IMG/VR virus record: IMGVR_UViG_3300046096_000174
Location: 8,024 to 72,023 of that record
Direction: 5' to 3' (one strand)
DNA: 64,000 nucleotides
Source: a virus
Taxonomy: Duplodnaviria; Heunggongvirae; Uroviricota; Caudoviricetes
In this document: in pieces, positions 12,020 to 58,953 of the stretch
Layout: each line of letters starts with the position of its first letter
How positions within the stretch are numbered: the stretch's first letter is position 1
Made by a program: the position numbers and the translations under genes
The notes under the pieces: generated by a model
Database searches by the model: none
The model's input: the letters and a program-made list of their open reading frames with translations, nothing else
What the model was told of the DNA's origin: nothing

Positions 12020-12544
12020 TTACTCCTGTTGGTCTTTAAACCTGCGCTTAACTTCTTCAAAGTTAATAGGCTTATAATCTGTGTGTTCCACGCTAACACA
12101 AAGGTAACGTGGGTCAATCTTACCATTTCTCATTACTCGATTATTATGCAAGTGTCCATGAATGTTACCAGCATAGCGTCCCAATGATTCCTCATGGATA
12201 GGCATATGGGTTAGCATATATTTGTCAAGCATATGGTAAGCACGAATATCACGAAAGAAGGGTAAGTACTCTTCTAACCTGAAAATATCGTGGTTGCCTT
12301 TAATCAAAATTTGGTCACCATTCAAACGATGGAGAAGTTTTAAAGCTTTGCGATTAATAACAACATCACCTAAATGATAAACCTTATCTTTAGGGCTTAC
12401 GGTTGAATTCCAAAGCTCTACCATATCTTCATCCATCTGGTCAGGGTCAATCCAAGGTCTGCATTTAGTACCGTCAGCCATGACGAACTTGCAAACCCCA
12501 ACATGACCCCAATGAGTGTCACTTGTCAGAAACACTTCGCTCAT
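12020..12544 (-). CDS. Calcineurin-like metallophosphoesterase (Ser/Thr phosphatase-like)
   Basis: Motifs DTHWGH, HLGDVV, GNHD and H.H, as in lambda PPase-type enzymes. Confidence 0.65.
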   Translation of the reverse strand: MSEVFLTSDTHWGHVGVCKFVMADGTKCRPWIDPDQMDEDMVELWNSTVSPKDKVYHLGDVVINRKALKLLHRLNGDQILIKGNHDIFRLEEYLPFFRDIRAYHMLDKYMLTHMPIHEESLGRYAGNIHGHLHNNRVMRNGKIDPRYLCVSVEHTDYKPINFEEVKRRFKDQQE

Positions 12545-18747: not shown

Positions 18748-19218
18748 TCATTGCTCCATTGTACCAAGAAATTTGAAGTTCTCAACAACTACTTGCAATT
18801 TAAACAAATAATTTCTACTGTAAGAACCTACATCACCTCCTACTACAATACGATGATACATTTTATCAGCAATCATATCCTTCAACAAATAAGTCTTAAT
18901 GATATAAGCACCGATTGTACCATCTGGTTTATGAATCTTGTACAGGTAGTAGTCAGCTTTTGAAATTGCTATTCCAGAAGCACGACCCCAACTTTCATAT
19001 TCTACACCAATATTGCCAGTTCTTGCACAACTAAAATCTTCTTTGATTTCAATCGTTACCTCACGCCCTTTAGGAAAACGCATACGTAAATCATAGTCTG
19101 AGTTATTACACTCATCTACAAAAGCGAGTCCATGCTTTTCAGCTAGGAAGCTTGCTATTTGCTTTTCAGTTTTACGTGCTATCTTAAAGTCGGTAGCAAA
19201 GTCGTAATTAGGCTGCAT
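18748..19218 (-). CDS. Hypothetical protein (possible PD-(D/E)xK-like D...EIK motif)
   Basis: DYDLRM...VTIEIKED pattern only; weak. Confidence 0.3.
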   Translation of the reverse strand: MQPNYDFATDFKIARKTEKQIASFLAEKHGLAFVDECNNSDYDLRMRFPKGREVTIEIKEDFSCARTGNIGVEYESWGRASGIAISKADYYLYKIHKPDGTIGAYIIKTYLLKDMIADKMYHRIVVGGDVGSYSRNYLFKLQVVVENFKFLGTMEQ

Positions 19219-20938
19219 TCAATTGTGAGTTAAGCAAACTACGAATTTCATCTACACTAGTTTCTTTCACAAGTTTACCATCTTTAAAGACAGTTTGCAA
19301 GCAACCTTGAGCTTCTTGCTCTTTAGTTTGTTGGTCATACAACACAAACTTACCGTCTTCAAACTCAACTCGCAATAAACCCTTAGCAGACTTCTTAGTA
19401 CCGCTGTCAGTGATAGGGTCTTTGTATAACTCAGAACCTTCACCATTAACTTCGGCATAAGTAGCTTTCATAGCAAAACCAAATGAATCACGAGTGACGT
19501 ATTGGTAAGTATAAGAGCCGATACCGAAGACTACGTTACTAGAAGCAAAACCCTTGGCTTTCAAACGCTTGAGAATTTGGTCAGCACGTTCTAAGGTAAT
19601 TGAATCACCGTAGATTAAGCCAACGTGTTCATCAAGCATCTTAAAGCCTTCGGCATTTACTGTGCCACCGAAAGTATCCCATAAGCATTGTACTGCACCT
19701 TTTTGTGCTGGTGACAATTCAACTGGTTCGAAACTAACAAGTCGGCTACCATCAATATAGTAGTATTGTTTGTCGTAACGATTCCACTCAAGTTCAACAG
19801 TTGCCAAATATACTTGACCTTCAAACAAGAAGTAATCACTTGGCGCATCATCACCTATTTCACCGTGGTCGGTTTCTGCACGTACACGAGATTCAATTAC
19901 ATCCTCTGCCCAACGTTTAGCCTCTTCTAGCGTAGTTGAGTTAAGTTTTTGAATCTCAATACCACAAAGAATCTCAACAGGGTCACCACTATCAGGACGG
20001 AATACAACTTTGTTCAAACCGATAGCGTTAGGAGTACGAGCCATAATCTCAGGCTTTAACTCTTTAGCCATGTCGGTAATAACATGCCAGAAATCCCATG
20101 TATCGCTAACAATACTGACAACACCAGAAGGACATACTTCAGTAATCAAACGGCGAAATGTTTCAATCTCTGATTCTTTACCACCAGCGCACATAACGCT
20201 ATGTTCAGTAGCAGGTACAGAACCACCGATAAACGTATTTAAACCACCGTAGAAGGCTTCCAAATAGTCAATGGCAGGGATAGTATCAGTACCCAAGAAA
20301 GACGTTAAGTGACCGCTGGCGCTGGCTGCATCATTCAGACCGCTTAAACCACGGTAGCTGAAGTCGTGACCTTGCCACAATACGAAGTCCAATGGCGCAC
20401 CAGTTTCCTTAGCATATTTGGTAAGAATCTTGCGATACTCAAACGCAGTAGTCGCAGTAGTGATTGGCTTCCACAATTCAGTACTAACTGCAGTCTCAAG
20501 ATAGTTAGTCAACCAGAAAAATTCTGGCAATGTATTCTTGATAGTGAGTACTGGAACTTTGATATCTACCAATGAACCTTCTGGCAAAGCTTTGATTTCG
20601 ATAGGCAAGTAGCCTAAGTCCCACAATGCTGCAATATGGTCAGTACCAACTACACCTTCACCAAGTGCCATATCTACACGGCGCTTGTATTCAGATACTA
20701 CGACAGCTTTTGGTTTGGCGAAGAAACCGTAGTGAAAAGCTTCCATCAAGAAAGACTTGATAAAACCTTGCAAACCAAACATCACAATTTGGTCAGGCTT
20801 CTTAGCGCCAGCACTAGGTGCAAGACGGTTAGAGCGTGGTGTGAAGTTACTGTAAATCATGGTAGTACCTTTAGGGTACATATCTTTGTGACCTACTTTA
20901 TAAAAATCACATGCTGTCATCGGGTTAATATAACTCAT
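19208..20938 (-). CDS. Nicotinamide phosphoribosyltransferase family protein (NadV/NAMPT-like; candidate Namat of a NARP1-type pathway)
   Basis: N-terminal TACDFYKVGHKDMYPKG (NAMPT D-S/F-YK-H motif). About 575 aa. Confidence 0.75.
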   Translation of the reverse strand: MSYINPMTACDFYKVGHKDMYPKGTTMIYSNFTPRSNRLAPSAGAKKPDQIVMFGLQGFIKSFLMEAFHYGFFAKPKAVVVSEYKRRVDMALGEGVVGTDHIAALWDLGYLPIEIKALPEGSLVDIKVPVLTIKNTLPEFFWLTNYLETAVSTELWKPITTATTAFEYRKILTKYAKETGAPLDFVLWQGHDFSYRGLSGLNDAASASGHLTSFLGTDTIPAIDYLEAFYGGLNTFIGGSVPATEHSVMCAGGKESEIETFRRLITEVCPSGVVSIVSDTWDFWHVITDMAKELKPEIMARTPNAIGLNKVVFRPDSGDPVEILCGIEIQKLNSTTLEEAKRWAEDVIESRVRAETDHGEIGDDAPSDYFLFEGQVYLATVELEWNRYDKQYYYIDGSRLVSFEPVELSPAQKGAVQCLWDTFGGTVNAEGFKMLDEHVGLIYGDSITLERADQILKRLKAKGFASSNVVFGIGSYTYQYVTRDSFGFAMKATYAEVNGEGSELYKDPITDSGTKKSAKGLLRVEFEDGKFVLYDQQTKEQEAQGCLQTVFKDGKLVKETSVDEIRSLLNSQLNAA

Positions 20939-20948
20939 TTAAACTCCT

Positions 20949-21749
20949 TTAAATTACTGTCACAGAATCTGCAACAGATTGGTTCATGTTGTTGTGTACG
21001 TAGATTGTAGCATAGAGTTTCAACAATTCATCCGTACCTTTAGAAAAAATTCCGTGGGTTACGTAAAGATTGAGAGATGTAATATTTGGCTGTGTTCGCT
21101 TTAGCATTTCAGCCAAGGACAAGAACGTGGCTCCACCATCACAGATATCATCAACTACGCATACGTTTCCACAGATTGTATCATAAGATTCGTCAACATA
21201 GACTACTTGACCATCTTTACGAACCTTTAGCAGTGTGTGGCAAGGCGTACCTAAGCTAACCTGATAGTGTGTCAGAACCTTATCAGCTGCGCCCTTATCT
21301 GGTGCAATCAATACATCAAATTTAGGTAAGTACTTTGCACAAGATGCTTGTGTCATGTGCTTCAACTGCATACCATAAGAGGCTAAAACATGTGCAGTAA
21401 CCTCACTGTGAACATCCTTCACATAGATGTTGTTGTAGTGCGGGAATGCTTTAAGCATGTGACCGAAGACCCGCAAGGCAAAACTCTCACCTTCATGGCA
21501 TACACGGTCTTGACGACCATAAGGTACGTAGGGAATATGCAAGTCGATTTTCTCACGGGGTACACCTTGCTGATAGAGGGCATCCAGCATGTTAAACGTC
21601 ATGAAAATTTCATCAGAAGAAGGCATGGTCATAATGATATCAACCTTCTCGTGAAGTTCAACCAGTGGTAATTTAATACCAACTTCACCAGCTGGAAATT
21701 TCCATTGCTGAAAACTAGTTGGTTTTCCGTTCAAGCGTAATTCTAACAT
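20949..21749 (-). CDS. Ribose-phosphate pyrophosphokinase (Prs)-family protein (candidate Adps of a NARP1-type pathway)
   Basis: PRPP-binding loop VVDDICDGGATF and a Prs-like N-terminal domain. Lies immediately upstream of the NAMPT-like gene. Confidence 0.65.
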   Translation of the reverse strand: MLELRLNGKPTSFQQWKFPAGEVGIKLPLVELHEKVDIIMTMPSSDEIFMTFNMLDALYQQGVPREKIDLHIPYVPYGRQDRVCHEGESFALRVFGHMLKAFPHYNNIYVKDVHSEVTAHVLASYGMQLKHMTQASCAKYLPKFDVLIAPDKGAADKVLTHYQVSLGTPCHTLLKVRKDGQVVYVDESYDTICGNVCVVDDICDGGATFLSLAEMLKRTQPNITSLNLYVTHGIFSKGTDELLKLYATIYVHNNMNQSVADSVTVI

Positions 21750-27011: not shown

Positions 27012-27020
27012 GTTTACTCC

Positions 27021-27926
27021 TTACATATCGTCTTTATGACGAATACCTTGAAACACTGGAAAGCGGGGTACGCTATAACCAGTACCTACATCGAAATACT
27101 TGACCTTTGCAAGCTGACCAGCTAGTGTATCACGGATTTCCCACAACTCTGCACGTAGCGCATCAGTAAAGCCACTACCACAACCGAATTCTAAGCCTTC
27201 AGAGGTACGTAGAAGGAGCGTTCCCATAGTATCTAGGGCTACCATACCCTCCTTACTTGTAGAGCGTTCTGTGCGGCCTAATTCGTTAGTCTTTGCTTCA
27301 TTGGTATTGTGGTACTTCGGTTCCCAACCAATGATGTCAAACTCCTTGTCTACGAAACGCTTAACCTTCTGCAGTTCTGGTGTCTTTGTACCAGAGCGAC
27401 CGCACTTATATTTAGCATGTGCATCACGAAGCATAACACCTTCAGCACCTAAATCTAGAAAATAGGCTTCAGCTGCAGCAATATCTTCATCGTCAAGCAT
27501 ATACGTATGCTTAAGTAATTGTGCTCGTTGTGGAAAACGCCCACGGTCAAACATATCGCTCAACTGGTTATAGCGTTCTAACCATGTCTTGTCTGGATGA
27601 TAATAATCGAATACCCACAAACTAAAATCAGGTTCTCCCTCGATACGCATAACACCAGAGGTTGATTGTGTAAATACGTCTGGTGCGTTCTTGTCACCAA
27701 CAATAATTTCACAATCCATGCCTTCTAGTACTGTAGCGTGATGCGCTACATAAGCTTGAATAGAGAGATTAGGAATCTTTTTAAGACTGCGGCTATAAGC
27801 TACACCACCAAAGATGATGCAGCGAATACCATCAAGCTTTTCACTCAGGTAACGTAAGGCTGGCTGTGTTTTTACTTTAGCTTGTTCGATAGCTAAGGAT
27901 GGTTTAAAACCTTCTGGAATTGTCAT
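27021..27926 (-). CDS. ATP-dependent DNA ligase (T7-like)
   Basis: Motif I SEKLDGIRC, motif IV GAEGVMLRD and motif V KYKCGRS. Confidence 0.7.
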   Translation of the reverse strand: MTIPEGFKPSLAIEQAKVKTQPALRYLSEKLDGIRCIIFGGVAYSRSLKKIPNLSIQAYVAHHATVLEGMDCEIIVGDKNAPDVFTQSTSGVMRIEGEPDFSLWVFDYYHPDKTWLERYNQLSDMFDRGRFPQRAQLLKHTYMLDDEDIAAAEAYFLDLGAEGVMLRDAHAKYKCGRSGTKTPELQKVKRFVDKEFDIIGWEPKYHNTNEAKTNELGRTERSTSKEGMVALDTMGTLLLRTSEGLEFGCGSGFTDALRAELWEIRDTLAGQLAKVKYFDVGTGYSVPRFPVFQGIRHKDDM

Positions 27927-33005: not shown

Positions 33006-33440
33006 ATGCAACCAGAATTCGAAATCTTGGCTAACCGTATGGGTCTTGGCGAAGAAGAGCGCAGCCTAGCTGAAATCGTTTGGAAACAGTGCGAGAAGAC
33101 TATGACAGGTAAAGGTGGACTTAAGGCCGCATTGTTCGGTGGTGAAGTAGTCAACTTCGAACCTCGCAGCACTGTTATCTTACACAACATTGAAACACTT
33201 ACTCGTGAAGAGATTGATTTCATGGTGTGGTTGAACCGCAACACATTAAACGGTATCGAGGAAATGAAGATGTTTCTCAAACGTAATATTGATTTGGAGT
33301 GGACCCGCGCTAATCCAGATGACCCAATGACGCAAGGTAACTTCGAAATGATGAACAACATGAAAGACATGTCACGTAAACTTAAACGTCAAACAAAGAT
33401 GCTATCATCTATCCAACGTAAACTCAAGAAGGCTCATTAA
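33006..33440 (+). CDS. Hypothetical protein
   Basis: RBS AAAGGAG. ORF. Confidence 0.45.
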   Translation: MQPEFEILANRMGLGEEERSLAEIVWKQCEKTMTGKGGLKAALFGGEVVNFEPRSTVILHNIETLTREEIDFMVWLNRNTLNGIEEMKMFLKRNIDLEWTRANPDDPMTQGNFEMMNNMKDMSRKLKRQTKMLSSIQRKLKKAH

Positions 33441-33787
33441 TGTCTGTTAGGAAACGCTACACTATTGTTGCTACGTGCTTTGACCGTAAAGGTAAGGTAC
33501 TTGGCACTGGTGCAAATAACTACAACAAGTCACATCCTTTGATGCAGCACTTTGCAGTTAAAGCTGGAGAGTCCGATGAAAAGATTTATCAACATGCAGA
33601 GCTAAACGCTGTGCTACAATCTGGACGTAAAGATATCCATAGCATCCTAGTGCAGCGTTTCCACGACAACGGTGATATGGCTATCGCTAAACCGTGCCCA
33701 ACTTGTCAAGCTATGCTGAAAGGTTTTGGTGTTAAGCTTGTGCGTTATACAACTGAAGAAGGAGTTAAAGAATATGAAATTTTATAA
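33440..33787 (+). CDS. Hypothetical protein (CPTCQ Cys pair)
   Basis: ORF coupled by ATGA overlap. Confidence 0.4.
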   Translation: MSVRKRYTIVATCFDRKGKVLGTGANNYNKSHPLMQHFAVKAGESDEKIYQHAELNAVLQSGRKDIHSILVQRFHDNGDMAIAKPCPTCQAMLKGFGVKLVRYTTEEGVKEYEIL

Positions 33788-34028: not shown

Positions 34029-34290
34029 GTACAATATTTTCAAACCTCACATCGTAAAGTTTGCCGATGGTAATTATGCTGTGCGTAAGCGTGGTTGGTG
34101 CGGTTTACTGTGGGTCTACAAGGATAGAAGCGCATGGCTTGGAGGCTTCTTTGAAAGTATTATGTGGTGGGATATCGGTCACATTGACCACTGCAAGGTA
34201 AGCACTTTTGACAAAGCCTTAGAGGTTAAACAAATGGAAGCACCTAATAATAAAAAACCTAATGAGATTGTGGAAGTTTACTATGGCTAA
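34021..34290 (+). CDS. Hypothetical protein, tandem paralogue B (YNIFKPHIVKFADGNYAVRKR...)
   Basis: ATGTTTAA overlap with the previous gene. Confidence 0.4.
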   Translation: MFKYNIFKPHIVKFADGNYAVRKRGWCGLLWVYKDRSAWLGGFFESIMWWDIGHIDHCKVSTFDKALEVKQMEAPNNKKPNEIVEVYYG

Positions 34291-34735
34291 TCAAAAAGAA
34301 CTTGACAGTGTGTACATGCAGACTGCATTAACTCATGCAATGCTATCTAAAGCGAAGAGAGCACAGGTAGGGGCCGTTTTAGTCACTGGTCATGGGGTAA
34401 CCCTCACTGGTTATAATGGCACTGCTAGAGGTCGTGATAATCGCTGTGAGGCATTAGAACCACAACCGTTTCCACATGAGTCAATACTAGTCACAAAACC
34501 AGAAGTAATTCACGCTGAATTAAACTGCATCTTAAAAGCTGCTCGTGAAGGTGTAAGCTGCATTGATTCAACAGTGTACGTTACCCTTGCACCGTGTATT
34601 CAGTGCAGTGCTATGATGGTTCAAGCTGGCGTAAGGCGACTAGTCTATAAGACACCTTATCGTGATGCATCTGGACTAGCGCTGCTTGAAGGCTCTGGTG
34701 TACGCATTCAACAGTACAGCGAGACACAATTATGA
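34283..34735 (+). CDS. dCMP deaminase (cytidine/deoxycytidylate deaminase family)
   Basis: Zinc-binding motifs HAELNCI (H-A-E) and PCIQCSAMM (PCxxC). Confidence 0.7.
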   Translation: MANQKELDSVYMQTALTHAMLSKAKRAQVGAVLVTGHGVTLTGYNGTARGRDNRCEALEPQPFPHESILVTKPEVIHAELNCILKAAREGVSCIDSTVYVTLAPCIQCSAMMVQAGVRRLVYKTPYRDASGLALLEGSGVRIQQYSETQL

Positions 34736-35941: not shown

Positions 35942-36117
35942 GCCAAGGTCATAACTTTAATCGTACACTAAATGCTAAGGGTATGTTCATTTACTGCGGA
36001 AAGTGTGGTTTAATACGTCTAGGTAATCGTGTAACCGAAAAGGCTATCAACAAACCTTGTGGTGGTGTACGCGATTTAGATGACGATGAATACTTAAAAC
36101 TGAAAGGTAAGAAATGA
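35938..36117 (+). CDS. 59-aa zinc-ribbon mini-protein (CGKCG...CGG), not in track
   Basis: ATGA overlaps. Open 60 codons. Confidence 0.3.
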   Translation: MSQGHNFNRTLNAKGMFIYCGKCGLIRLGNRVTEKAINKPCGGVRDLDDDEYLKLKGKK

Positions 36118-36512
36118 AACCAATACTATATCTAATCCGTGGCGTAAGTGGCGCTGGTAAAAGTACGTTTGCTCAACGCCTATGGGAAGCTGGTGTTGTA
36201 GAGCGAGTATTTGAAGCTGACGATTGGTTTTATACTGATGGTGAGTATAAGTTCGAGCCTTCAGGTTTGAGGGCTGCACATAACGCATGCCAAGAGAACA
36301 CAAGATTTTGCTTACAGCAAGGCAAGTCTGTGGCTGTAGCTAATACGTCTACAACAGAGTTTGAAGTTCTGGTGTATCGTCACATTGCCGAAGAATGCAA
36401 TGCACATCTTATCAGTGTGATTGTTGAAAATCGCCATGATGGTGTTAACATCCACGGTGTACCAGAAGAGAAACTTAAACAGATGAAGGAGCGTTTTAGT
36501 GTTAAGCTTTGA
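36114..36512 (+). CDS. P-loop kinase (polynucleotide kinase / nucleotide kinase-like)
   Basis: Walker A GVSGAGKST at the N-terminus. 132 aa, minimal kinase domain. Confidence 0.55.
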   Translation: MKPILYLIRGVSGAGKSTFAQRLWEAGVVERVFEADDWFYTDGEYKFEPSGLRAAHNACQENTRFCLQQGKSVAVANTSTTEFEVLVYRHIAEECNAHLISVIVENRHDGVNIHGVPEEKLKQMKERFSVKL

Positions 36513-37365
36513 CCAACAAATGAACTTAGTGAACCGTGGGTTAGCTATCATGAAGAATGACGGTAAATTCACTACGTTTAAATACCACCGCCGAGCTATG
36601 TACGAATATCTGTGGTTCAATGAATATGACCTTCACGAATGTCGTGGGCATGTCTATGATTCAGCAACTAAAGAGTTAGTACAAGCAGCACCACGCAAGT
36701 CTTTCAATTATAAAGAGAATGACCTATGGTGGGCCGCTACAGATTTAGATACACGAGTAGAAGTGTATAAGAAAGTCAATGGCTACATGGCATGTGCTAC
36801 GTTGCACAATGGTGAATTAGTGGTATCAACTACTGGCTCAACTACTTCTGAATATGCTCAGTGGGCTAAGGAGTTAATTGTCAAAGATTATGCACTATAT
36901 GACATGATTATTGACAAGGACGCTACTGTGCTATTTGAAGTCGTAGTACCGCAAGACCCTCATATTGTTGAAGAACGTATGGGTTTACACTTGTTAGGTA
37001 TCCGTGAAAAAGCTAGTGGTAAGTTCCATCCATCAGGTCGTGCTGGTCTTATGACTTTAGCAGAAGCTATTGCATTGGCTGAAACAGACCGAGGTGAAGG
37101 CTTTATGGTTTATCGTGCAGATTGTGCAGAGAAAACCGCACCATGCAAGTTAAAGACACCTTACTATGTTGGTAAGAAGAAACTAATGCGTATGTCAGCT
37201 AAGAATGTAAGTGCTATGTATGATAATGGCTTTCAGATTGCAAATACATTACCAGATATGTGGTACGATGTACCTAGAGTTATTGTACAAACCTATACCA
37301 AAGAAGATTGGTTAAGTTTCAATGACCAACAACGCCGAGTATTTTTAGAAGCTTTGAAAGGTTAA
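36499..37365 (+). CDS. ATP-dependent RNA ligase-like nucleotidyltransferase
   Basis: Motif I KVNGYMA, motif IV GEGFMVYR and motif V KLKTPYY. Adjacent to the P-loop kinase. Confidence 0.5.
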   Translation: MLSFDQQMNLVNRGLAIMKNDGKFTTFKYHRRAMYEYLWFNEYDLHECRGHVYDSATKELVQAAPRKSFNYKENDLWWAATDLDTRVEVYKKVNGYMACATLHNGELVVSTTGSTTSEYAQWAKELIVKDYALYDMIIDKDATVLFEVVVPQDPHIVEERMGLHLLGIREKASGKFHPSGRAGLMTLAEAIALAETDRGEGFMVYRADCAEKTAPCKLKTPYYVGKKKLMRMSAKNVSAMYDNGFQIANTLPDMWYDVPRVIVQTYTKEDWLSFNDQQRRVFLEALKG

Positions 37366-37366
37366 T

Positions 37367-37744
37367 ATGTACCTATGCATTTTCCCGCAGAACCTGTATC
37401 TTGAACATGTTGTAATCAAGGACAATAAGCTGGTAGCTGGTTGGGTAGTCAATGGTGCATGGTGGTGGGTATTAAATGACCAACGAGAAGAAGCTTATTA
37501 TTCTAAAGATAATCCTGTATTGGTTAACTCATGGAATCATCGAGAGTTTGAAAAGATTGTACATGTGCCTTGGGATAAGGCTACATTCGACTACAATGCT
37601 GTACTTCAGTGGGCTGAAGAGCAGGAAGGTTTTGTAATTGAAGAAAATTCTTTAGCTGATTTATTAGACCTAGATGCGCTAGATGAAATAAATCTAAAGA
37701 AACTATACCATGATGAAGACTATGATGACAGATTTGTATTTTAA
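37367..37744 (+). CDS. Hypothetical acidic protein
   Basis: ORF. Confidence 0.35.
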   Translation: MYLCIFPQNLYLEHVVIKDNKLVAGWVVNGAWWWVLNDQREEAYYSKDNPVLVNSWNHREFEKIVHVPWDKATFDYNAVLQWAEEQEGFVIEENSLADLLDLDALDEINLKKLYHDEDYDDRFVF

Positions 37745-37753
37745 GGAGAATAT

Positions 37754-38248
37754 ATGAAACATTTAGAAGGTGATTTGATTGAATTAGCTCGTGCAGGGCA
37801 TTTCAACTATATCGTTCAAGGTTGCAATTGTTTTTGCACTATGGGTAAAGGTATCGCTAAACAAATTAAGAAAGAATTTCCTGCAGCTTATGCAGCCGAT
37901 TGCTTGACTTTCTATGGTGACCGTGCTAAACTCGGTACATACAGTATTATGTATGGCCCTATCACCGTTATCAATGCATACACTCAGTATGATTTTGCTA
38001 AAGGCTACGATGGTACTGGTGATTACTTCGAGTACGAAGCATTCCAAAAAGTCCTAGACCGTTTGGTTAAAGACCACGGTCACCGTGACTTCGGTTTTCC
38101 CTACATTGGTATGGGACTAGCTGGAGGTGATAGTAAACGCATTCTAGGTATGCTACAAGGCTTTGCAGATGCTGTTAAGCTTAAGGGAGGGTCAGTAACA
38201 TTAGTGAAGTACCCTATGAATAGAATTTTACGAAAGGAAACAGCTTGA
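37754..38248 (+). CDS. Macro domain protein (ADP-ribose / ADPR-1''-phosphate processing family)
   Basis: Macro signatures IVQGCNCFCTMGKGIA and GFPYIGMGLAGGD. Confidence 0.6.
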   Translation: MKHLEGDLIELARAGHFNYIVQGCNCFCTMGKGIAKQIKKEFPAAYAADCLTFYGDRAKLGTYSIMYGPITVINAYTQYDFAKGYDGTGDYFEYEAFQKVLDRLVKDHGHRDFGFPYIGMGLAGGDSKRILGMLQGFADAVKLKGGSVTLVKYPMNRILRKETA

Positions 38249-39144
38249 TTTCAGCTAAAATTATTGCCGACAGTTTTAACCCAACTTTCGATGCACGTAT
38301 TACAACTTTCGAATTGGTATACCCACGATTTATTCACGGTGAGTTAATGACCCACCGAGTATTCAGCCGCAATGCTGCAAGTTCTCGTGCTATTCCAATC
38401 GATAAGGTTATTGAGCTAGTCGAAGCAACTCCAGCTATGCCTGTGCATTGGGGTGCTAACCAAGCAGGTATGCAAGCCAAAGAAGAAGTCGTAGGTAAAG
38501 AACTAGCTAAGTTATTATGGCTTAATGCTCGTGATAGTGCCGTAGCTAACGCACGACTATTACAGAAGGCAGGACTGCATAAGCAGATTGTCAACCGTGT
38601 ATTGGAACCATTCCAACTCATTAAAACAATCGTCACTGCTACTCAATGGAATAACTGGTTTTGGTTGCGTGACCATGTGGATGCACAACCAGAGATTGCA
38701 GAATTAGCTGCAGTTATGGCTATTGCTTATGATGCAAGCGCACCAGAATTACTAGTTAATAACGAATGGCATGTACCTTACGTTAAAACATTGGTAAGTC
38801 CCTATCAAGGTCGTATCTATTTAGATGAACTTGATAACTACATTACTGTAGAAGAAGCGCGAATGATTAGTGCCAGCTGTTGCGCTCAGGTTAGCTATCG
38901 TAAGAATGATGGTAGCCTAGAGAAAGCTTCTATGGTATTTGACCGATTAATTAACTCAGTGCCAGTGCATGCTTCACCAGTTGAGCATATCGCTACACCG
39001 ATTCCTTATGAGAGTTTCGCAGGTGATTATTTAGATATTGAAGGTGTAACCCATATCGACAAGAATAATGTCCCACACAGCGGTAATTTTCATGGTTGGA
39101 TTCAATTCCGTCAGTTAATTCCTAACAACGTCAAAGCACTATGA
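38245..39144 (+). CDS. thyX: Flavin-dependent thymidylate synthase
   Basis: ThyX signature RHR-x7-S (MTHRVFSRNAASSRA). Confidence 0.75.
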   Translation: MISAKIIADSFNPTFDARITTFELVYPRFIHGELMTHRVFSRNAASSRAIPIDKVIELVEATPAMPVHWGANQAGMQAKEEVVGKELAKLLWLNARDSAVANARLLQKAGLHKQIVNRVLEPFQLIKTIVTATQWNNWFWLRDHVDAQPEIAELAAVMAIAYDASAPELLVNNEWHVPYVKTLVSPYQGRIYLDELDNYITVEEARMISASCCAQVSYRKNDGSLEKASMVFDRLINSVPVHASPVEHIATPIPYESFAGDYLDIEGVTHIDKNNVPHSGNFHGWIQFRQLIPNNVKAL

Positions 39145-44861: not shown

Positions 44862-45082
44862 GCCATGAACTAGCAGAAACCGAATGGAAAGGTATGCCTG
44901 AGTTCGTACAAGACAAGCAAGAACCCTATGCTAAGATTATCATTCGCTTTCGCAATCAAGAAGACTTAGACGAGTTTGCTAACCTAGTCGGTCAAAAGCT
45001 TACAGCTAAAACCAAAAGCATGTGGCATCCGTTCTTAGAGCGAGGTATCAACGCGAATAAAAGGTACGTAGATGAATCCTAA
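44858..45082 (+). CDS. Hypothetical protein
   Basis: ORF. Confidence 0.3.
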   Translation: MSHELAETEWKGMPEFVQDKQEPYAKIIIRFRNQEDLDEFANLVGQKLTAKTKSMWHPFLERGINANKRYVDES

Positions 45083-45941
45083 ATATCCTATTTACATTGT
45101 ATCTAAGGGAAGGGCACATACTCGGTTGACTAGCAAGGCGCTAGAACGCATGCAAGTGCCCTACAGCATCGTTGTTGAAGAGCAGGAATACCTAGAGTAC
45201 TCCAAGGTAATTGACCCCTCTAAAATCCTCGTATTACCGCAGAGCTGGTTGGACGAATACGATACGTGTGATGACTTGGGTAATACGCTGAGTAAGGGAC
45301 CGGGAGCAGCGCGGAACTTCTGCTGGTGGCATGCAAAGCACCTAGGGGCTAAACGTCATTGGGTTATGGACGATAACCTAGATGCTTTCCATCGCCTAAA
45401 CCATAACATGAAAGTTGTGGTAGAAACTGGCTCATGTTTTAAAGCAGCCGAGGATTTTGTTGACCGTTATACCAATGTTCCGTTAGCTGGTTTTAACTAC
45501 TACTCGTTTGCGAAAGCTACAGATAAAGTACCACCTTTTATTGCAAATACCCGTATCTACTCTTGTCTCTTGATTGAAAATTCTGCACCGTATTACTGGC
45601 GTGGACGCTACAATGAAGATACGGACTTATCCCTACGGATATTGAAGGATGGATGGTGTACAATTCAATTCAATGCATTCTTGCAGGGTAAGGTAACTAC
45701 GCAGCGCATGCGTGGAGGAAATACCGAAGAGTTCTATCGTCACGAAGGCACTAAGAACAAATCACAGATGCTGGTGGACTTACATCCAGATGTAACCGAG
45801 CTGGTATGGAAGTTCAACCGTTGGCATCATCATGTTGATTACAGGCCATTCAAAAATAATCTGTTGATTAAACGCGAAAGTCTAGAAATCTCTGATACAA
45901 TCGACAACTACGGAATGAAACTAATTGAAAGGACAAGATAA
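45072..45941 (+). CDS. Hypothetical protein with a DxD-like motif (possible nucleotide-sugar/glycosyltransferase-like fold)
   Basis: IYIVSKGRA...HWVMDDNLDAF (DxD). Weak; no family assignment possible by eye. Confidence 0.35.
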   Translation: MNPKYPIYIVSKGRAHTRLTSKALERMQVPYSIVVEEQEYLEYSKVIDPSKILVLPQSWLDEYDTCDDLGNTLSKGPGAARNFCWWHAKHLGAKRHWVMDDNLDAFHRLNHNMKVVVETGSCFKAAEDFVDRYTNVPLAGFNYYSFAKATDKVPPFIANTRIYSCLLIENSAPYYWRGRYNEDTDLSLRILKDGWCTIQFNAFLQGKVTTQRMRGGNTEEFYRHEGTKNKSQMLVDLHPDVTELVWKFNRWHHHVDYRPFKNNLLIKRESLEISDTIDNYGMKLIERTR

Positions 45942-49552: not shown

Positions 49553-50265
49553 CAAAAACCTACTTGGGTTCTACTGGACTGAAAAGCCGCGAAGGGTTTA
49601 AAAATCCGCGATAGGTTTGAAATCTAAAAAGTACCCAAAAACCTACGCCCCCTTTGGTGAACAAAAACAACTGGCATTTTCCCTCGCGGGGCGATGCTTC
49701 GCAAAATGCGAAGATTTATCAGAATCATAAGCTTCTCGATTTGATATGGCACGGACTTTGCTAATAGCAAGAAGCATGCCAACCAGAAAACCAAGCAAGA
49801 ATTGTGCCAGCTGGATGCAAGCAAATATCATGCCAATAATACCCGACCAGCATCAGGGGTTATTACGTGGCGCGGTTTTTGCTAATAGCAGGAAGCATGC
49901 CAGCAGGGGCAAGGGCAAGAAACGTGCCAGCCAACTTTACACAGGACCGATTTAAACGCCCCACAAGGCCCCGAAGCCATGCCAAGCCACTACCACACCA
50001 GCCGAAGTTATCCACAGCACTAGTGGTACTTATCCACAATTTGAACTCTTATATAAGACTAATAAACTGTGGATAACTTTTTGACGTATTGGAAACAAAG
50101 GTATTCAGGGGCAACCATTCAGGAAACAAAAGTTAACATTCTGGCCATCATAGGTTTTGACTATAGACCCGATTAAAAATATTAATCACATCCCCGCCGA
50201 TAGCGGGGTTTTTCGCATATACTGGAGGCACTGGAATAAACCAGCAACAGCAACAGGGGCAGAGA
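49553..50265. repeat. Ori-like noncoding region: direct repeats, an inverted repeat, iteron-like ~120-bp duplicated units and a DnaA-box cluster
   Basis: Direct repeats CCAAAAACCTAC (49553, 49634) and GCGAWAGGTTT (x2). Palindrome CTTCGCAAAATGCGAAG (~49698). Duplicated unit TTTGCTAATAGCARGAAGCATGCCARC...GCAAGAANNGTGCCAGC at 49757..49815 and 49878..49932. No credible CDS; the track ORFs here run on both strands as GC-driven artefacts. Confidence 0.5.
50008..50076. promoter_or_regulatory. Three perfect DnaA boxes (TTATCCACA at 50008 and 50030; TGTGGATAA at 50068) flanking an AT-rich 30-bp core
   Basis: Exact matches to the 9-mer DnaA box consensus in both orientations within 70 bp. AT-rich segment aatttgaactcttatataagactaataaac between them. 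Confidence 0.6.
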
Positions 50266-50451: not shown

Positions 50452-50524
50452 ATTTTACAGGGTAGCCGATAACGTCAAATTATCGGTTACACTATCAACA
50501 ACAGCAACAAAACAGGGTTTCCAA

Positions 50525-51320: not shown

Positions 51321-51330
51321 GGGGCACGAC

Positions 51331-57451: not shown

Positions 57452-57529
57452 AGCAGAGTAGAGAAGTGGTCTATCTCGCTACCCTCATAAGGTAGAAATC
57501 GGCGGTTCGAATCCGTCCTCATGCTTCCA
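57452..57529 (+). tRNA. tRNA-like, anticodon CAU (Met/Ile2) with a poorly paired acceptor stem
   Basis: D-arm GAGA-AGTGGTCTA-TCTC. Anticodon arm CTACC-CTCATAA-GGTAG. T-arm GGCGG-TTCGAAT-CCGTC. Acceptor AGCAGAG vs CTCATGC pairs only 3/7, so it is a possible pseudo-tRNA or the boundaries are off. Confidence 0.4.
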
Positions 57530-57715
57530 GAATTTATTTGCTATTTCCGAATAGCGAATAGCCAGAGCATAAGCCGAAGGCTCGTAGCTTAATCTAACGC
57601 TACTGAGGTTGAATCTGAATCCAAAGGATGAAGAGGATGTAGACACCGAAAGTCAGAAGTCTACTAGTCCTGCATGGAACCTAGTCCTCTGCAGGTACGA
57701 ATATACTCTAGGCTT

Positions 57716-57789
57716 GCCCTGTTAGTTAAGTGGTATAACACCTGTTTTGTAATCAGGTATTGGCAGTTCGATTCTGTCACGGGGCACCA
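57716..57789 (+). tRNA. tRNA-Thr (UGU)
   Basis: Acceptor GCCCTGT/ACGGGGC. D-arm GTTA-AGTGGTA-TAAC. Anticodon loop TTTGTAA. T-arm GGCAG-TTCGATT-CTGTC. Ends with CCA. Confidence 0.7.
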
Positions 57790-57795
57790 AATTTC

Positions 57796-57871
57796 GCGGA
57801 GATAGCTCAGTTGGTAGAGCGTTGTCTTGATAAGGCAAATGTCACTGGTTCAAGCCCAGTTCTCCGTACCA
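57796..57871 (+). tRNA. tRNA-Ile (GAU)
   Basis: GCGGAGA-TA-GCTCAGTTGGTAGAGC-G-TTGTC-TTGATAA-GGCAA...ACTGG-TTCAAGC-CCAGT-TCTCCGT-A-CCA. Confidence 0.75.
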
Positions 57872-57949
57872 ATTTCGAGAAGATTACAAGTATTTGTTCA
57901 TAGCCTGTGTAACCTTTTGGTTTTGTGCTATAATCTTCTCAATTAATTT

Positions 57950-58024
57950 ACTGCATTCGTCTATCGGTTAGGACACTCGGTTTTCATCCGAGCAAGGGGA
58001 GTTCGATTCTCCCATGCAGTACCA
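57950..58024 (+). tRNA. tRNA-Glu (UUC)
   Basis: Acceptor ACTGCAT/ATGCAGT is perfect. Anticodon arm CTCGG-TTTTCAT-CCGAG. T-arm GGGAG-TTCGATT-CTCCC. Ends with CCA. An extended -10 TGcTATAAT lies at 57925..57934 upstream. Confidence 0.75.
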
Positions 58025-58029
58025 AATAT

Positions 58030-58116
58030 GGATTGTTGGCTGAACGGTTAAGGCAGCGGATTGTAAATCCGTCATCCCAAGGGATATTAGTGGTTCGAAT
58101 CCATTGCAATCCACCA
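58030..58116 (+). tRNA. tRNA-Tyr (GUA) with a long variable arm
   Basis: Acceptor GGATTGT/GCAATCC. Anticodon arm GCGGA-TTGTAAA-TCCGT. Variable arm ATCCC-AA-GGGAT. T-arm AGTGG-TTCGAAT-CCATT. Ends with CCA. Confidence 0.7.
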
Positions 58117-58351
58117 AATTTTGTAGTCTTAGTCTGGAACTAGGGTAAAGGGTGTTGCGGAAGCTTAAATGCCGTTAAATATCGAAGCGCAACTTTAATG
58201 AATGTGTGCAGCCTACTATAATTAATAAGTCGGAGTAATTAGCCGAATAGTAAACACCCGCCAGCGAGGTAGCATGGTGGCAATCGCAGGGAATCCAGCG
58301 TGAGTAAAAGGGTGGGGTCAGAGTCCTCAAAAATAATGCTACTCGAAATTT
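58117..58351 (+). other. 235-nt noncoding gap inside the tRNA cluster (possible structured RNA)
   Basis: No plausible CDS; the 72-aa minus-strand track ORF lacks an RBS and context. Several local stems. By analogy, T4/T5 tRNA regions carry small stable RNAs. Confidence 0.25.
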
Positions 58352-58427
58352 TGGCATATAGCTCAGTTGGTAGAGCGTTTGACTGTTAATCAAAATGTCC
58401 GTGGTTCGACCCCACGTATGCCAGCCA
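58352..58427 (+). tRNA. tRNA-Asn (GUU)
   Basis: TGGCATA-TA-GCTCAGTTGGTAGAGC-G-TTTGA-CTGTTAA-TCAAA...CGTGG-TTCGACC-CCACG-TATGCCA-G-CCA. Confidence 0.75.
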
Positions 58428-58432
58428 GTTAA

Positions 58433-58500
58433 GGGTATGATGATTCAGCCTTCCTATTGCAGGAGGTAGCAGGTAGGTTTAATTCCTACGATATCCACCA
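58433..58500 (+). tRNA. Short (68-nt) tRNA-like element with a reduced D-region (possible UUG/Gln-type anticodon hairpin)
   Basis: Acceptor GGGTATG/GATATCC (6/7). T-arm GTAGG-TTTAATT-CCTAC. Ends with CCA. The candidate anticodon hairpin CTTCC-TATTGCA-GGAGG has a non-canonical loop. Confidence 0.3.
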
Positions 58501-58504
58501 CTTC

Positions 58505-58580
58505 GTTCCGATAGCTCAACTAGGCAGAGCAGTGGATTCCAAATCCGAAGGTTGGAGGTTCGATTCCTTCTCGGTTCGCA
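58505..58580 (+). tRNA. tRNA-Trp (CCA)-like with two U-U mismatches in the acceptor stem and a 3' GCA instead of CCA
   Basis: D-arm GCTC-AACTAGGCA-GAGC. Anticodon arm GTGGA-TTCCAAA-TCCGA. T-arm GGAGG-TTCGATT-CCTTC. Acceptor GTTCCGA vs TCGGTTC. Confidence 0.45.
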
Positions 58581-58602
58581 AATATAATATACAGGAGCAT
58601 TT

Positions 58603-58674
58603 ATGAATAATGAAGGTTGGGATGGTATCTCAAATGAAGGCTCAGGATACGCAGAGAAAATTCCTCGTATCTAA
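58603..58674 (+). CDS. 23-codon micro-ORF (MNNEGWDGISNEGSGYAEKIPRI) with a strong RBS, inside the tRNA cluster
   Basis: ACAGGAGCATTT-ATG spacing is ideal. Lies between the tRNA-Trp-like and tRNA-Ser genes. Far below the track threshold. Confidence 0.25.
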   Translation: MNNEGWDGISNEGSGYAEKIPRI

Positions 58675-58682
58675 ATAATCAA

Positions 58683-58772
58683 GGGTGGTTGGCAGAGAGG
58701 CCGATTGCAGAGGGTTGCTAACCCTTAAGCCGCTAACGTGGCTCATAGGTTCAAATCCTATACTACCCGCCA
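58683..58772 (+). tRNA. tRNA-Ser (GCU), long variable arm
   Basis: Acceptor GGGTGGT/ACTACCC. 3-bp D-stem. Anticodon arm GAGGG-TTGCTAA-CCCTT. Variable arm GCCGC-TAAC-GTGGC. T-arm ATAGG-TTCAAAT-CCTAT. Ends with G-CCA. Confidence 0.7.
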
Positions 58773-58777
58773 AATTG

Positions 58778-58865
58778 GGATGGGTGGCAGAGTGGTCGAT
58801 TGCGACAGGCTTGAACCCTGTTGGTCCGAAAGGGTCCGTGAGTTCGAATCTCACCTCATCCTCCA
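58778..58865 (+). tRNA. tRNA-Ser (UGA), long variable arm
   Basis: Acceptor GGATGGG/CTCATCC. Anticodon arm ACAGG-CTTGAAC-CCTGT. Variable arm TGGTCCGAAAGGGTCCGT. T-arm GTGAG-TTCGAAT-CTCAC. Ends with CCA. Confidence 0.7.
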
Positions 58866-58875
58866 AATACAATAT

Positions 58876-58953
58876 CCGTTTTTAGGCTAGTCTGGTTAAG
58901 TCACTTGGTTTGGGGCCAAGATATCGTAGGTTCGAATCCTACAGAACGGACCA
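58876..58953 (+). tRNA. tRNA-Pro (UGG)
   Basis: Acceptor CCGTTTT/AGAACGG. D-arm GGCT-AGTCTGGTTA-AGTC. Anticodon arm CTTGG-TTTGGGG-CCAAG. T-arm GTAGG-TTCGAAT-CCTAC. Ends with A-CCA. Confidence 0.7.

What the first reader, a model, noticed from the sequence alone, without database searches (positions are those of the whole stretch)
36114..38248. P-loop kinase plus RNA ligase plus macro-domain protein cluster: probable RNA-repair / ADP-ribose-processing module
A minimal Walker-A kinase (GVSGAGKST) is followed by a nucleotidyltransferase ligase (KVNG, EGFMVYR, KLKTPYY), one unknown small ORF, and a macro domain (GCNCFCTMGKGIA, GFPYIGMGLAGGD). A polynucleotide kinase plus ligase is the T4 strategy against anticodon nucleases. 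A macro domain could instead remove ADP-ribose marks (DarT-type toxins) or process ADPR-1''-phosphate arising from RNA ligation by-products. The combination suggests a counter-defence module directed at host tRNA- or DNA-targeting toxins. The phage also carries its own tRNA set, consistent with tRNA-targeting pressure.
Basis: partly seen in the sequence, partly recalled or inferred. Interest (0 to 1): 0.6.

Follow-up and report, generated by a model that had tools for sequence, protein, structure and literature searches.

The report
Phage RNA-repair pair plus macro hydrolase
A freshwater phage carries a T4-like kinase-plus-ligase pair for mending cut RNA, and directly beside it a separate enzyme that processes ADP-ribose; both belong to known phage counter-defence families, so this is a sound annotation, not a new system.

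Summary

In other lineages a calcineurin-like phosphoesterase sits beside the pair. Here the only homologue lies 24 kb away (12020-12544, minus strand).

The macro gene is not part of that unit. Its slot between ligase and ThyX holds other genes in close relatives, and the family is unlinked from the ligase in several phages. It belongs to the T4 Tk.4 family, which has two tested members: AdfM (anti-DarTG2) and Adpp (ADPR-1''-phosphate phosphatase serving NARP1). This phage carries a NARP1-like pair.

Verdict: two independent, known counter-defence functions sitting side by side. New member of a known kind; modest interest.

The parts
36114..36512 (+). Stand-alone P-loop polynucleotide-5'-kinase-like protein (132 aa), with no fused phosphatase domain
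36499..37365 (+). Rnl1-family ATP-dependent RNA ligase (288 aa) with a short helical C-terminal domain
   Evidence: phrog_562 2.2e-41. Homologues carry PF09511. Profile against PDB: T4 Rnl1 1.1e-9. hhalign: probability 96.7%, with K92=K99, E147=E159, E200/G201=E227/G228, K217/K219=K240/K242, R49=R54, K67=K75, F69=F77. Foldseek: T4 Rnl1 1.2e-11.
37367..37744 (+). ORF C: small accessory gene of unknown function with an acidic C-terminus; an insertion, not part of either function
   Evidence: Only 26 cluster representatives in 1.84 billion proteins at E<=1e-3. phrog_10586, function unknown. Absent from the 78%-identical relative L007, where macro directly follows the ligase. No homologue in DC31.
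37754..38248 (+). Tk.4/AdfM/Adpp-family macro-domain ADP-ribose hydrolase (164 aa)
   Evidence: Pfam Macro 25 bits (cut-off 22), phrog_335 1.2e-41. 32% identical to T4 Tk.4, E 2e-19. 44.6% identical to the Acinetobacter TAC1 macro that directly follows Namat, and 34% to Vibrio Bennett gp178, which is 94% identical to the tested Adpp of phage Gary. Profile against PDB: BT1257 6.5e-10, SCO6735 1.7e-9, Poa1p 4.5e-9, DarG 3.9e-8.
12020..12544 (-). Calcineurin-like metallophosphoesterase (174 aa): candidate 3'-end-healing partner of the kinase-ligase pair, unlinked here
   Evidence: Found by tblastn with the phosphoesterases that flank the pair in phi92, HMD-6, PAK_P2, Bitten, Bennett and DC31 (E 1e-10 to 5e-15). 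Intact ORF with DxH, GD, GNHD and GHxH motifs. Metallophos_2 4.6e-5. PDB 1XM7 3.5e-7. The role in RNA repair is inferred only.
19208..21749 (-). NARP1-like pair: Prs-like (Adps-type) gene 20949-21749 and Nampt-like (Namat-type) gene 19208-20938; probable metabolic partner of the macro enzyme
   Evidence: phrog_619 7e-57 and phrog_448 7.5e-199. Homologous to the pairs in Bennett, PAK_P2 and TAC1. An adjacent phage Prs-like plus Nampt-like pair is the operational definition of NARP1.
57452..58953 (+). Array of ten tRNA genes (context only)
   Evidence: ARAGORN and Rfam agree.

Best explanation
The region holds two independent phage counter-defence functions that happen to be neighbours in a tightly packed early or middle gene array.

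(1) RNA heal-and-seal pair. The 132-aa kinase phosphorylates the 5'-OH end of a broken RNA. The likeliest substrate is a tRNA cut in its anticodon loop by a host nuclease. The 288-aa Rnl1-type ligase then acts in three steps: K92 is adenylylated by ATP, AMP is passed to the 5'-phosphate, and the 3'-OH attacks to seal the break. The 2',3'-cyclic phosphate that such nucleases leave must first be removed. The best candidate for that step is the calcineurin-like phosphoesterase at 12020-12544, which does T4's phosphatase job from a separate gene.

(2) Macro enzyme. This is a Tk.4/Adpp-family ADP-ribose-1''-X hydrolase working on its own. In this genome its likeliest job is to turn ADPR-1''-phosphate, made when RES-type defences break down NAD+, into ADPR. 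The phage's NARP1-like enzymes (19208-21749) then rebuild ADPR into NAD+. Removing DarT2 ADP-ribose marks from phage DNA is a second, non-exclusive job.

Shown here: family membership, conserved catalytic residues, predicted folds, gene linkage patterns. Inferred: every enzymatic activity and every substrate.
For: Kinase: fold and profile are closest to polynucleotide kinases, with the P-loop and catalytic Asp conserved. The closest solved sequence relatives are the stand-alone Mucorales RNA 5'-OH kinases (PMC11571804).

Ligase: all nucleotidyltransferase motifs and the Rnl1-specific residues R54, K75 and F77 are conserved, and T4 Rnl1 is the top match by sequence and by structure.

Pairing: kinase hits 621 phage records and ligase hits 616, with the same genus counts. 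The two genes were 16-896 nt apart in all 12 records present in both lists.

Phosphoesterase: it lies within about 1.5 kb of the pair in phi92, HMD-6, PAK_P2, Bitten, Bennett and DC31. DC31 and the window each have exactly one homologue. The rV5/Mydo neighbourhood was already read as RNA repair by Iyer et al. (PMC9503650).

Macro: homologous to the tested AdfM and Adpp proteins. It is more similar to the NARP1-linked members (112 and 85 bits) than to T4 Tk.4 (67 bits). A NARP1-like pair is present in the window. The macro slot is variable.
Against: No activity has been measured for any protein of this kinase-ligase clade.

Kinase: it lacks the T4 Arg38 equivalent (F39 at that position).

Ligase: it lacks the T4 Lys119 equivalent (T112) and most of the tRNA-specific C-terminal domain. 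It scores far below the curated T4 RnlA cut-off (33.8 against 242 bits).

Phosphoesterase: the window's copy is 24 kb away and only 30-35% identical to the ligase-linked ones. It belongs to a broad family found in 2169 phage records, most without the ligase pair.

Macro: the gene is 16 kb from the NARP1-like genes and on the other strand, so it fails the operational definition of NARP1-AP (within two genes). Similarity to Adpp and to AdfM is low in both cases (32-45%), and a short NJ tree without bootstraps does not separate the functions.
Confidence: 0.6

Rival explanations
1. The macro enzyme is chiefly an AdfM-type DNA ADP-ribosylglycohydrolase. It strips the ADP-ribose that DarT2 places on thymidines of phage single-stranded DNA and has nothing to do with NARP1.
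For: T4 Tk.4 (32% identical, E 2e-19) is required for T4 to grow on DarTG2 hosts (bioRxiv 10.1101/2025.11.20.689424). SCO6735, among the closest solved relatives (1.7e-9), cleaves thymidine-linked ADP-ribosylation of DNA (PMC9411070, title). DarG is also a hit. The family occurs in 2419 phage records, more than the 859 NARP1 pathways counted in an older, smaller phage set. T4 shows a member with no annotated NARP1 genes in the stretches read.
Against: The window protein is more similar to the NARP1-linked macros than to Tk.4 (112 and 85 bits against 67), and the phage does carry a NARP1-like pair. The family has no conserved residue that aligns reliably with the catalytic lysine of DarG/TARG1. 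The T4 evidence is genetic only. The two roles are not mutually exclusive.
Confidence: 0.3
2. One integrated module. The ligase works like fungal Trl1 or the stand-alone Mucorales ligases and leaves a 2'-phosphate at the junction. A Tpt1/KptA enzyme removes it with NAD+, and the macro enzyme clears the resulting ADPR-1''-phosphate as yeast Poa1p does.
For: The closest solved sequence relatives of the kinase are Mucorales tRNA-splicing kinases. Trl1 ligase domains score nearly as well as T4 Rnl1 by Foldseek (5e-10). Poa1p is among the closest solved relatives of the macro family (4.5e-9). The macro gene lies one gene downstream of the ligase here and directly next to it in L007.
Against: No 2H cyclic phosphodiesterase and no Tpt1/KptA was found among the window ORFs of 130 aa or more that were scanned, and the flanking DNA read on near-identical contigs encodes virion proteins. 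The macro gene is absent from DC31-type relatives that keep kinase and ligase, and it is unlinked in T4, Klebsiella and Erwinia phages. In other lineages the partner is a metallophosphoesterase, which fits a T4-like 3'-OH end.
Confidence: 0.06
3. The kinase and ligase serve the phage's own nucleic-acid metabolism rather than counter-defence. Possible roles are DNA 5'-end repair or processing of phage RNAs.
For: The Mucorales and T4 kinases also phosphorylate DNA ends (PMC11571804). The genes lie among nucleotide-metabolism genes (dCMP deaminases, ThyX). The phage has two further ligases.
Against: The ligase is of the Rnl1 type, whose known biological role is tRNA repair. A dedicated DNA ligase and a nick-sealing Rnl5-type RNA ligase are already present. 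The pair recurs next to anti-defence genes (NARP1, sirtuin/cREC) in several lineages.
Confidence: 0.1
4. The kinase and the ligase-like adenylyltransferase act on NAD+ precursors. The kinase would act as a nicotinamide riboside kinase and the ligase would pass AMP to NMN, adding another NAD+ rebuilding route beside NARP1.
Confidence: 0.03

Closest known systems
Phage T4 Pnkp (PseT) plus Rnl1 (gp63) tRNA repair against the PrrC anticodon nuclease
   Same: The kinase fold and catalytic residues match (K, S, D). The ligase has the same nucleotidyltransferase motifs and Rnl1-specific ATP-site residues. In T4 too the genes lie close together, near a dCMP deaminase and other nucleotide-metabolism genes.
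   Different: The kinase stands alone at 132 aa, with no fused HAD 3'-phosphatase. 3'-healing, if phage-encoded, is by an unrelated calcineurin-like phosphoesterase. The ligase is 288 aa instead of 374 and lacks most of the tRNA-binding C-terminal domain and the K119 equivalent. It scores far below the T4 RnlA equivalog cut-off.
rV5 / Mydo / phi92 / Pakpunavirus 'T4-like tRNA ligase + nucleotide kinase (+ calcineurin phosphoesterase, cREC, sirtuin, MazG)' neighbourhood (Iyer et al. 2022, PMC9503650)
   Same: The ligase and kinase families are orthologous (30-42% identity), with the same tight pairing.
   Different: The window has no cREC or sirtuin gene near the pair (cREC and SIR2 queries gave no tblastn hit). 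The phosphoesterase is 24 kb away. A macro gene occupies the slot where DC31-type relatives have the phosphoesterase.
Adpp, the macro-domain ADPR-1''-phosphate phosphatase of NARP1-AP (Vibrio phage Gary; bioRxiv 10.64898/2026.01.28.702374)
   Same: Same macro family (34% identity to the 94%-identical Bennett orthologue; 44.6% to the TAC1 macro that follows Namat). The phage also has a NARP1-like pair.
   Different: The gene is not inside or next to the NARP1 operon: it is 16 kb away on the opposite strand. Activity is untested.
T4 Tk.4 = AdfM, anti-DarTG2 macrodomain (bioRxiv 10.1101/2025.11.20.689424)
   Same: Homologous over the full length (32% identity, E 2e-19), with the same GCNCF..MGxG and IGxG..G loops.
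   Different: It is the most distant of the phage homologues compared (67 bits). No annotated NARP1 genes lie in the T4 stretches read, whereas this phage has a NARP1-like pair.
Mucorales stand-alone tRNA-splicing RNA 5'-OH kinases (RazKIN 9D8A, LcoKIN 9DRZ; PMC11571804)
   Same: Best sequence-profile matches in the PDB (1e-5 and 1e-4). Both are stand-alone small P-loop polynucleotide kinases, and the MciKIN member has an essential Asp36.
   Different: The similarity is weak. The window protein is about 40 residues shorter than these kinases (132 aa against 165-176), so it may lack the G-loop region that gives them GTP specificity; the donor nucleotide here is unknown.

Membership tests
T4 Rnl1-family RNA ligase (PF09511 / TIGR02308) | Motif I lysine nucleophile (KxxG; T4 K99) | tested here: met
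   K92 in KVNG aligns with T4 K99 and is invariant in 22 and 28 homologues.
T4 Rnl1-family RNA ligase (PF09511 / TIGR02308) | Motifs III, IV and V (T4 E159, E227-G228, K240/K242) and the Rnl1-specific R54, K75, F77 | tested here: met
   E147, E200-G201, K217/K219, R49, K67 and F69 align and are invariant.
T4 Rnl1-family RNA ligase (PF09511 / TIGR02308) | T4 Lys119 equivalent (listed as essential in T4 Rnl1, from my own knowledge of the mutational work) | tested here: not met
   T112 is at that position in the hhalign alignment.
T4 Rnl1-family RNA ligase (PF09511 / TIGR02308) | C-terminal tRNA-specificity domain (T4 residues about 255-374) | tested here: not met
   Only about 65 helical residues follow motif V (helices 221-287), and the profile match ends at T4 residue 267.
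T4 Rnl1-family RNA ligase (PF09511 / TIGR02308) | Score above the curated family cut-off | tested here: not met
   No Pfam hit at E<=0.01. TIGR02308 scores 33.8 bits against a 242-bit cut-off. Many homologues do carry a precomputed PF09511 hit. It is therefore a divergent relative, not an equivalog.
T4 Rnl1-family RNA ligase (PF09511 / TIGR02308) | Closest fold is Rnl1 rather than a DNA ligase, Rnl2 or Rnl5 | tested here: met
   Foldseek: T4 Rnl1 1.2e-11, Trl1-LIG 5e-10, Rnl3 5e-10, Rnl5 5e-6, Rnl2 1e-4, DNA ligases 4e-3 or worse.
Polynucleotide 5'-kinase (T4 Pnkp kinase-domain type) | P-loop GxxGxGK[ST] and catalytic Asp (T4 D35) | tested here: met
   G10-VSGAGKS-T18. D36 aligns with D35; it is invariant in 22 homologues and nearly invariant in 29.
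Polynucleotide 5'-kinase (T4 Pnkp kinase-domain type) | Arg contacting the acceptor nucleotide (T4 R38) | tested here: not met
   F39 at that position, mostly aromatic across the family.
Polynucleotide 5'-kinase (T4 Pnkp kinase-domain type) | Lid arginine over the NTP phosphates (T4 R126) | tested here: inconclusive
   The invariant R107 lies in the aligned lid segment but is offset from R122/R126. The model is of lower confidence there (pLDDT 59-69 for residues 101-130).
Polynucleotide 5'-kinase (T4 Pnkp kinase-domain type) | Fold closer to polynucleotide kinases than to NMP/dNMP or nucleoside kinases | tested here: met
Polynucleotide 5'-kinase (T4 Pnkp kinase-domain type) | Fused 3'-phosphatase domain (bifunctional Pnkp) | tested here: not met
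   The protein ends after the kinase domain at residue 132.
Complete heal-and-seal RNA repair system | An enzyme that removes 2',3'-cyclic or 3'-phosphate | tested here: inconclusive
   A candidate metallophosphoesterase lies at 12020-12544. It is unlinked and belongs to a broad family. No HAD phosphatase, 2H or cREC protein was found.
Complete heal-and-seal RNA repair system | Repair of nuclease-cut tRNA in vivo or in vitro | not testable with these tools
   Needs biochemistry or genetics.
Tk.4 / AdfM / Adpp macro family (phrog_335) | Macro fold with both glycine-rich ADP-ribose-binding loops | tested here: met
   Pfam Macro is above its cut-off. G31, G33, G119 and G121 are invariant; G124 and G125 are nearly invariant.
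Tk.4 / AdfM / Adpp macro family (phrog_335) | Full-length homology to the tested members | tested here: met
   T4 Tk.4 E 2e-19. Bennett gp178 E 8e-25; this protein is 94% identical to Gary Adpp.
NARP1-AP (Adps-Adpp-Namat operon) | Macro gene within two genes of the Adps/Namat pair | tested here: not met
   The macro gene is at 37754 on the + strand; the Adps/Namat-like genes are at 19208-21749 on the - strand. Definition.
NARP1-AP (Adps-Adpp-Namat operon) | Adjacent Prs-like and Nampt-like genes in the same genome | tested here: met
   Whether the Prs-like protein falls in the Adps clade was not tested by phylogeny.
DarG / TARG1-type ADP-ribosylglycohydrolase | Catalytic lysine (TARG1 K84, DarG K80; residue numbers from my own knowledge) | tested here: inconclusive
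   The HMMER alignments to DarG, BT1257 and SCO6735 disagree by 1-4 positions in this segment. No lysine is conserved there in the family; N74, Y76, T77 and Q78 are invariant instead.
Fungal/plant Trl1-type 2'-phosphate pathway | 2H cyclic phosphodiesterase and Tpt1/KptA phosphotransferase | tested here: not met
   Neither was found among the window ORFs of 130 aa or more scanned with PHROGs and/or Pfam, and the flanking DNA read encodes virion proteins. A host KptA cannot be excluded.

The most novel reading that the evidence does not exclude
The macro enzyme and the kinase-ligase pair are functionally coupled in a fungal-type RNA repair route. The cyclic phosphate is opened to a 2'-phosphate, the Rnl1/Trl1-like ligase seals a 2'-PO4 junction, a host KptA removes the phosphate with NAD+, and the Poa1p-like macro enzyme recycles the ADPR-1''-P by-product into ADPR for NARP1. 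This would link tRNA repair to NAD+ rebuilding, and it could also explain why the repair genes and NARP1 genes are neighbours in five phage lineages.
Probability: 0.05. Interest if true: 0.75.

Novelty: new member of a known kind. Interest (0 to 1): 0.3.

Why it matters
The split kinase / short-Rnl1 / metallophosphoesterase set occurs in more than 600 sequenced phages, including therapy-relevant Pseudomonas, Klebsiella, Acinetobacter and E. coli phages. I found no report of a member being tested biochemically or genetically. If it repairs tRNA, it would be the main non-T4 form of phage tRNA repair and would predict which anticodon-nuclease defences these phages escape. The macro gene adds a case in which an Adpp/AdfM-family enzyme and a NARP1-like pair are in one genome but not in one operon. 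Operon-based counts of NARP1-AP would then underestimate how many phages can use ADPR-1''-phosphate. For this window itself the value is a corrected, more complete annotation.

Tried and rejected
- Megablast of the region against phages gave only 50-nt chance-size hits.
- Single-sequence phmmer against the PDB found nothing for the ligase and almost nothing for the kinase. Profiles were needed.
- ORF C as the missing 3'-healing enzyme: rejected. It has no family, no HxT/S motifs, only 26 relatives, and is absent from the nearest relatives.
- Macro as a conserved third member of the module: rejected on synteny.
- Kinase as a dNMP/NMP kinase: rejected on structure.
- Ligase as a DNA-ligase paralogue: rejected.
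- cREC and sirtuin partners of the rV5 type: no homologue in the window.
- NARP3 (PnuC plus NadR) as an alternative identity for the kinase: unrelated components.
- Promoter and terminator scan of 32-41.5 kb: counts equal to shuffled expectation, so there is no operon boundary evidence.
- HIDEN-SEQ data on the rV5-like phage Bas54: nothing reported for its ligase or kinase.
- An NJ tree of macro proteins did not resolve Adpp-type from AdfM-type.
- Assigning a catalytic residue in the macro domain from the PDB alignments failed because the alignments disagree.
Full report
**Observation.** The four co-directional ORFs are present exactly as described. They are packed head to tail:
- The kinase start overlaps the previous stop codon.
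- The ligase GTG start lies 7 nt after an AAGGAG and overlaps the kinase end by 14 nt.
- ORF C starts one base after the ligase stop.
- The macro ATG follows a second AAGGAG.

Family scans give AAA_33 and phrog_2071 for the kinase, phrog_562 (T4 RnlA type) for the ligase, nothing informative for ORF C, and Pfam Macro plus phrog_335 for the last ORF. The window is a phage. It encodes a tail protein, ribonucleotide reductase, DNA polymerase, primase-helicase and large terminase and ten tRNAs. Flanking DNA read on near-identical metagenome contigs encodes portal, capsid and tape-measure proteins. The nearest isolate is Limnohabitans phage DC31. An identical ligase protein sits on an 83-kb metagenome contig.

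**Kinase.**
- A profile of 22 homologues matches the T4 PseT kinase domain (hhalign probability 95.8%, E 7e-9). K16/S17 sit on the P-loop residues and D36 on the catalytic Asp35, but F39 replaces Arg38.
- In the PDB the best sequence matches are the stand-alone Mucorales tRNA-splicing RNA 5'-OH kinases. Mammalian PNKP, Pnkp1, T4 Pnk and CthPnkp follow (PMC11571804).
- The protein is therefore polynucleotide-kinase-like and has no phosphatase domain.

**Ligase.**
- Many homologues carry PF09511.
- The family profile finds T4 Rnl1 at 1.1e-9 in the PDB.
- It aligns with T4 Rnl1 residues 31-267 with K92=K99, E147=E159, E200/G201=E227/G228, K217/K219=K240/K242, R49=R54, K67=K75 and F69=F77. T112 replaces K119.
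- The model (pLDDT 82) is closest to T4 Rnl1 (1.2e-11), then fungal Trl1 ligase domains and archaeal Rnl3. DNA ligases are at 4e-3 or worse.
- Only about 65 helical residues follow motif V, so most of the T4 tRNA-specificity domain is missing.
- The protein scores far below the curated T4 RnlA cut-off. It is a divergent, shortened Rnl1 relative.
- The phage separately encodes a DNA ligase (27021-27926) and a DraRnl/Rnl5-type RNA ligase (25986-27011).

**The kinase and ligase are a fixed pair.**
- tblastn finds the kinase in 621 phage records and the ligase in 616. The leading genus counts are almost the same: Escherichia 198/199, Pseudomonas 173/175, Klebsiella 36/36, Acinetobacter 24/24 and so on.
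- In the twelve records that appear in both printed lists, the genes are 16-896 nt apart.
- Iyer et al. (PMC9503650) already described the rV5/Mydo version as an RNA-end clean-up and ligation neighbourhood. It comprises a T4-like tRNA ligase, a nucleotide kinase, cREC, a sirtuin, MazG and sometimes a calcineurin-like phosphoesterase.
- I found no experimental work on it. The HIDEN-SEQ study of the rV5-like phage Bas54 reports nothing for these genes.

**The missing 3'-end step.** A kinase alone cannot prepare a 2',3'-cyclic phosphate end for an Rnl1-type ligase.
- In phi92 a 183-aa phosphoesterase, the ligase and the kinase are contiguous.
- In HMD-6 the phosphoesterase abuts the kinase.
- In PAK_P2, Bitten, Bennett and DC31 it lies within about 1.5 kb.
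- tblastn with these proteins finds one homologue in the window, a 174-aa ORF at 12020-12544 on the minus strand. It has the DxH, GD, GNHD and GHxH motifs, a Metallophos_2 match and PDB relative 1XM7. My first gene call missed it because the neighbouring exonuclease ORF over-extends upstream.
- DC31 has a single homologue too, but in the slot between ligase and ThyX and not at the window's position.

The link of the window's copy to RNA repair is an inference. It is only 30-35% identical to the ligase-linked copies, and its family occurs in 2169 phage records.

**Macro gene.**
- It is homologous to T4 Tk.4 (32% identity, E 2e-19).
- The family profile finds BT1257, SCO6735, yeast Poa1p, DarG and TARG1 in the PDB. 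Both glycine-rich loops are invariant or nearly so.
- Two members have been tested. T4 Tk.4 (renamed AdfM) is needed on DarTG2 hosts (bioRxiv 10.1101/2025.11.20.689424). [quoted passage not shown]
- Bennett gp178, which sits between the Prs-like and Nampt-like genes, is 94% identical to the Gary protein.
- The window protein scores 85 bits against Bennett gp178, 112 bits against the Acinetobacter TAC1 macro that directly follows Namat, and 67 bits against T4 Tk.4.
- The window carries an adjacent Prs-like and Nampt-like pair at 19208-21749. That is how NARP1 is recognised.

I therefore favour the Adpp-type role, with DarT2 reversal as a second and compatible role. Sequence alone cannot decide between them.

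**The macro gene is not part of the kinase-ligase unit.**
- In a relative with a 78%-identical ligase, the order is kinase, ligase, macro, ThyX, with no ORF C.
- In 65-66% relatives the slot holds two small ORFs and the phosphoesterase, plus an HNH gene in L008/L009. DC31 has no macro gene anywhere in its genome.
- A 61%-identical macro gene sits elsewhere on a contig that shares neighbouring gene families with the DC31-type contigs. Other close homologues lie beside NMNAT/Nampt genes or topoisomerase genes.
- In Klebsiella FKP3, Erwinia pEp_SNUABM_01 and T4, the macro and ligase genes are 67-81 kb apart.
- Macro domains occur in 41% of myoviruses (PMC9503650), so adjacency here is unremarkable.

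**Mechanism, with status.**
- Shown: family membership, conserved catalytic residues, predicted folds, and linkage patterns.
- Inferred for RNA repair: a host nuclease cuts a tRNA; the phosphoesterase or a host enzyme removes the cyclic phosphate; the kinase phosphorylates the 5'-OH; the ligase seals through K92-AMP.
- Inferred for the macro enzyme: it independently hydrolyses ADPR-1''-P to feed the NARP1-like enzymes and/or removes DarT2 marks.

**Rivals and tested-and-failed ideas.**
- The fungal-type 2'-phosphate pathway would tie the macro enzyme to ligation. It is disfavoured because no 2H or Tpt1 gene was found among the ORFs of 130 aa or more that were scanned, and because the macro gene is dispensable in relatives.
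- The promoter and terminator scan was uninformative.

**Verdict.** Its T4 analogy for kinase plus ligase is supported, and both of its chemical suggestions for the macro domain match tested relatives. The "one module" reading is not supported. All parts belong to known families, so this is a new member of a known kind. The only open biology is the untested, widespread split RNA-repair set.

Noticed in passing
window 19208-21749 (- strand): Adjacent Prs-like (266 aa) and Nampt-like (576 aa) genes. [quoted passage not shown] DC31 lacks both.
   Followed up: partly
window 18139-18237 and 18604-18679 (- strand): Rfam finds two tRNA-like genes that ARAGORN missed. One has about 26 extra nucleotides in the anticodon-arm region, like an intron. 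The other has its D-arm reduced to 4 nt, a 17-nt variable region and the anticodon loop CUUCUAC. Both lie next to the Nampt-like gene.
   Followed up: partly
window 25986-27926 (- strand): A DraRnl/Rnl5-type RNA ligase (N-terminal OB domain; TIGR02306 above its cut-off) lies directly beside an ATP-dependent DNA ligase. The phage therefore has three ligases.
   Followed up: partly
window 12020-12544 (- strand) against ORF 11071-12126: The longest-ORF call for the polymerase-exonuclease gene over-extends upstream by about 36 codons and hides a real 174-aa metallophosphoesterase gene. The true exonuclease start is probably near 12018.
   Followed up: yes
window 38245-39144; 33440-33787; 34262-34735; 45072-45941: The 299-aa ThyX-like protein has no detectable similarity to the 222-aa ThyX at the same position in DC31. 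With two dCMP-deaminase-like genes and a glucosyltransferase-like gene (phrog_842, 2e-54), this hints at DNA base modification.
   Followed up: no
window 50001-54000: GC content is 0.48-0.50 against about 0.40 elsewhere, with strong positive AT skew (+0.15 to +0.27) and few long ORFs between 49 and 52 kb. The cause is unknown.
   Followed up: no
loci L002, L003, L011, L012, L018 (Bitten, Bennett, PAK_P2, phi92, TAC1): The phosphoesterase / Rnl1-like ligase / kinase genes lie within a few kb of the NARP1 genes in five different phage lineages. This recurrent neighbourhood has no explanation so far.
   Followed up: partly
window 37367-38248 and loci L001, L007, L008: The interval between the ligase and ThyX is a variable slot. 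It holds ORF C plus macro here, macro alone in L007, and small ORFs plus a phosphoesterase (with an HNH endonuclease in L008/L009) in DC31-type genomes.
   Followed up: yes
window 53680-55237 (- strand): A ClpP-like / head-maturation protease-like gene and a PhoH-like ATPase gene lie next to each other, upstream of the tRNA array.
   Followed up: no
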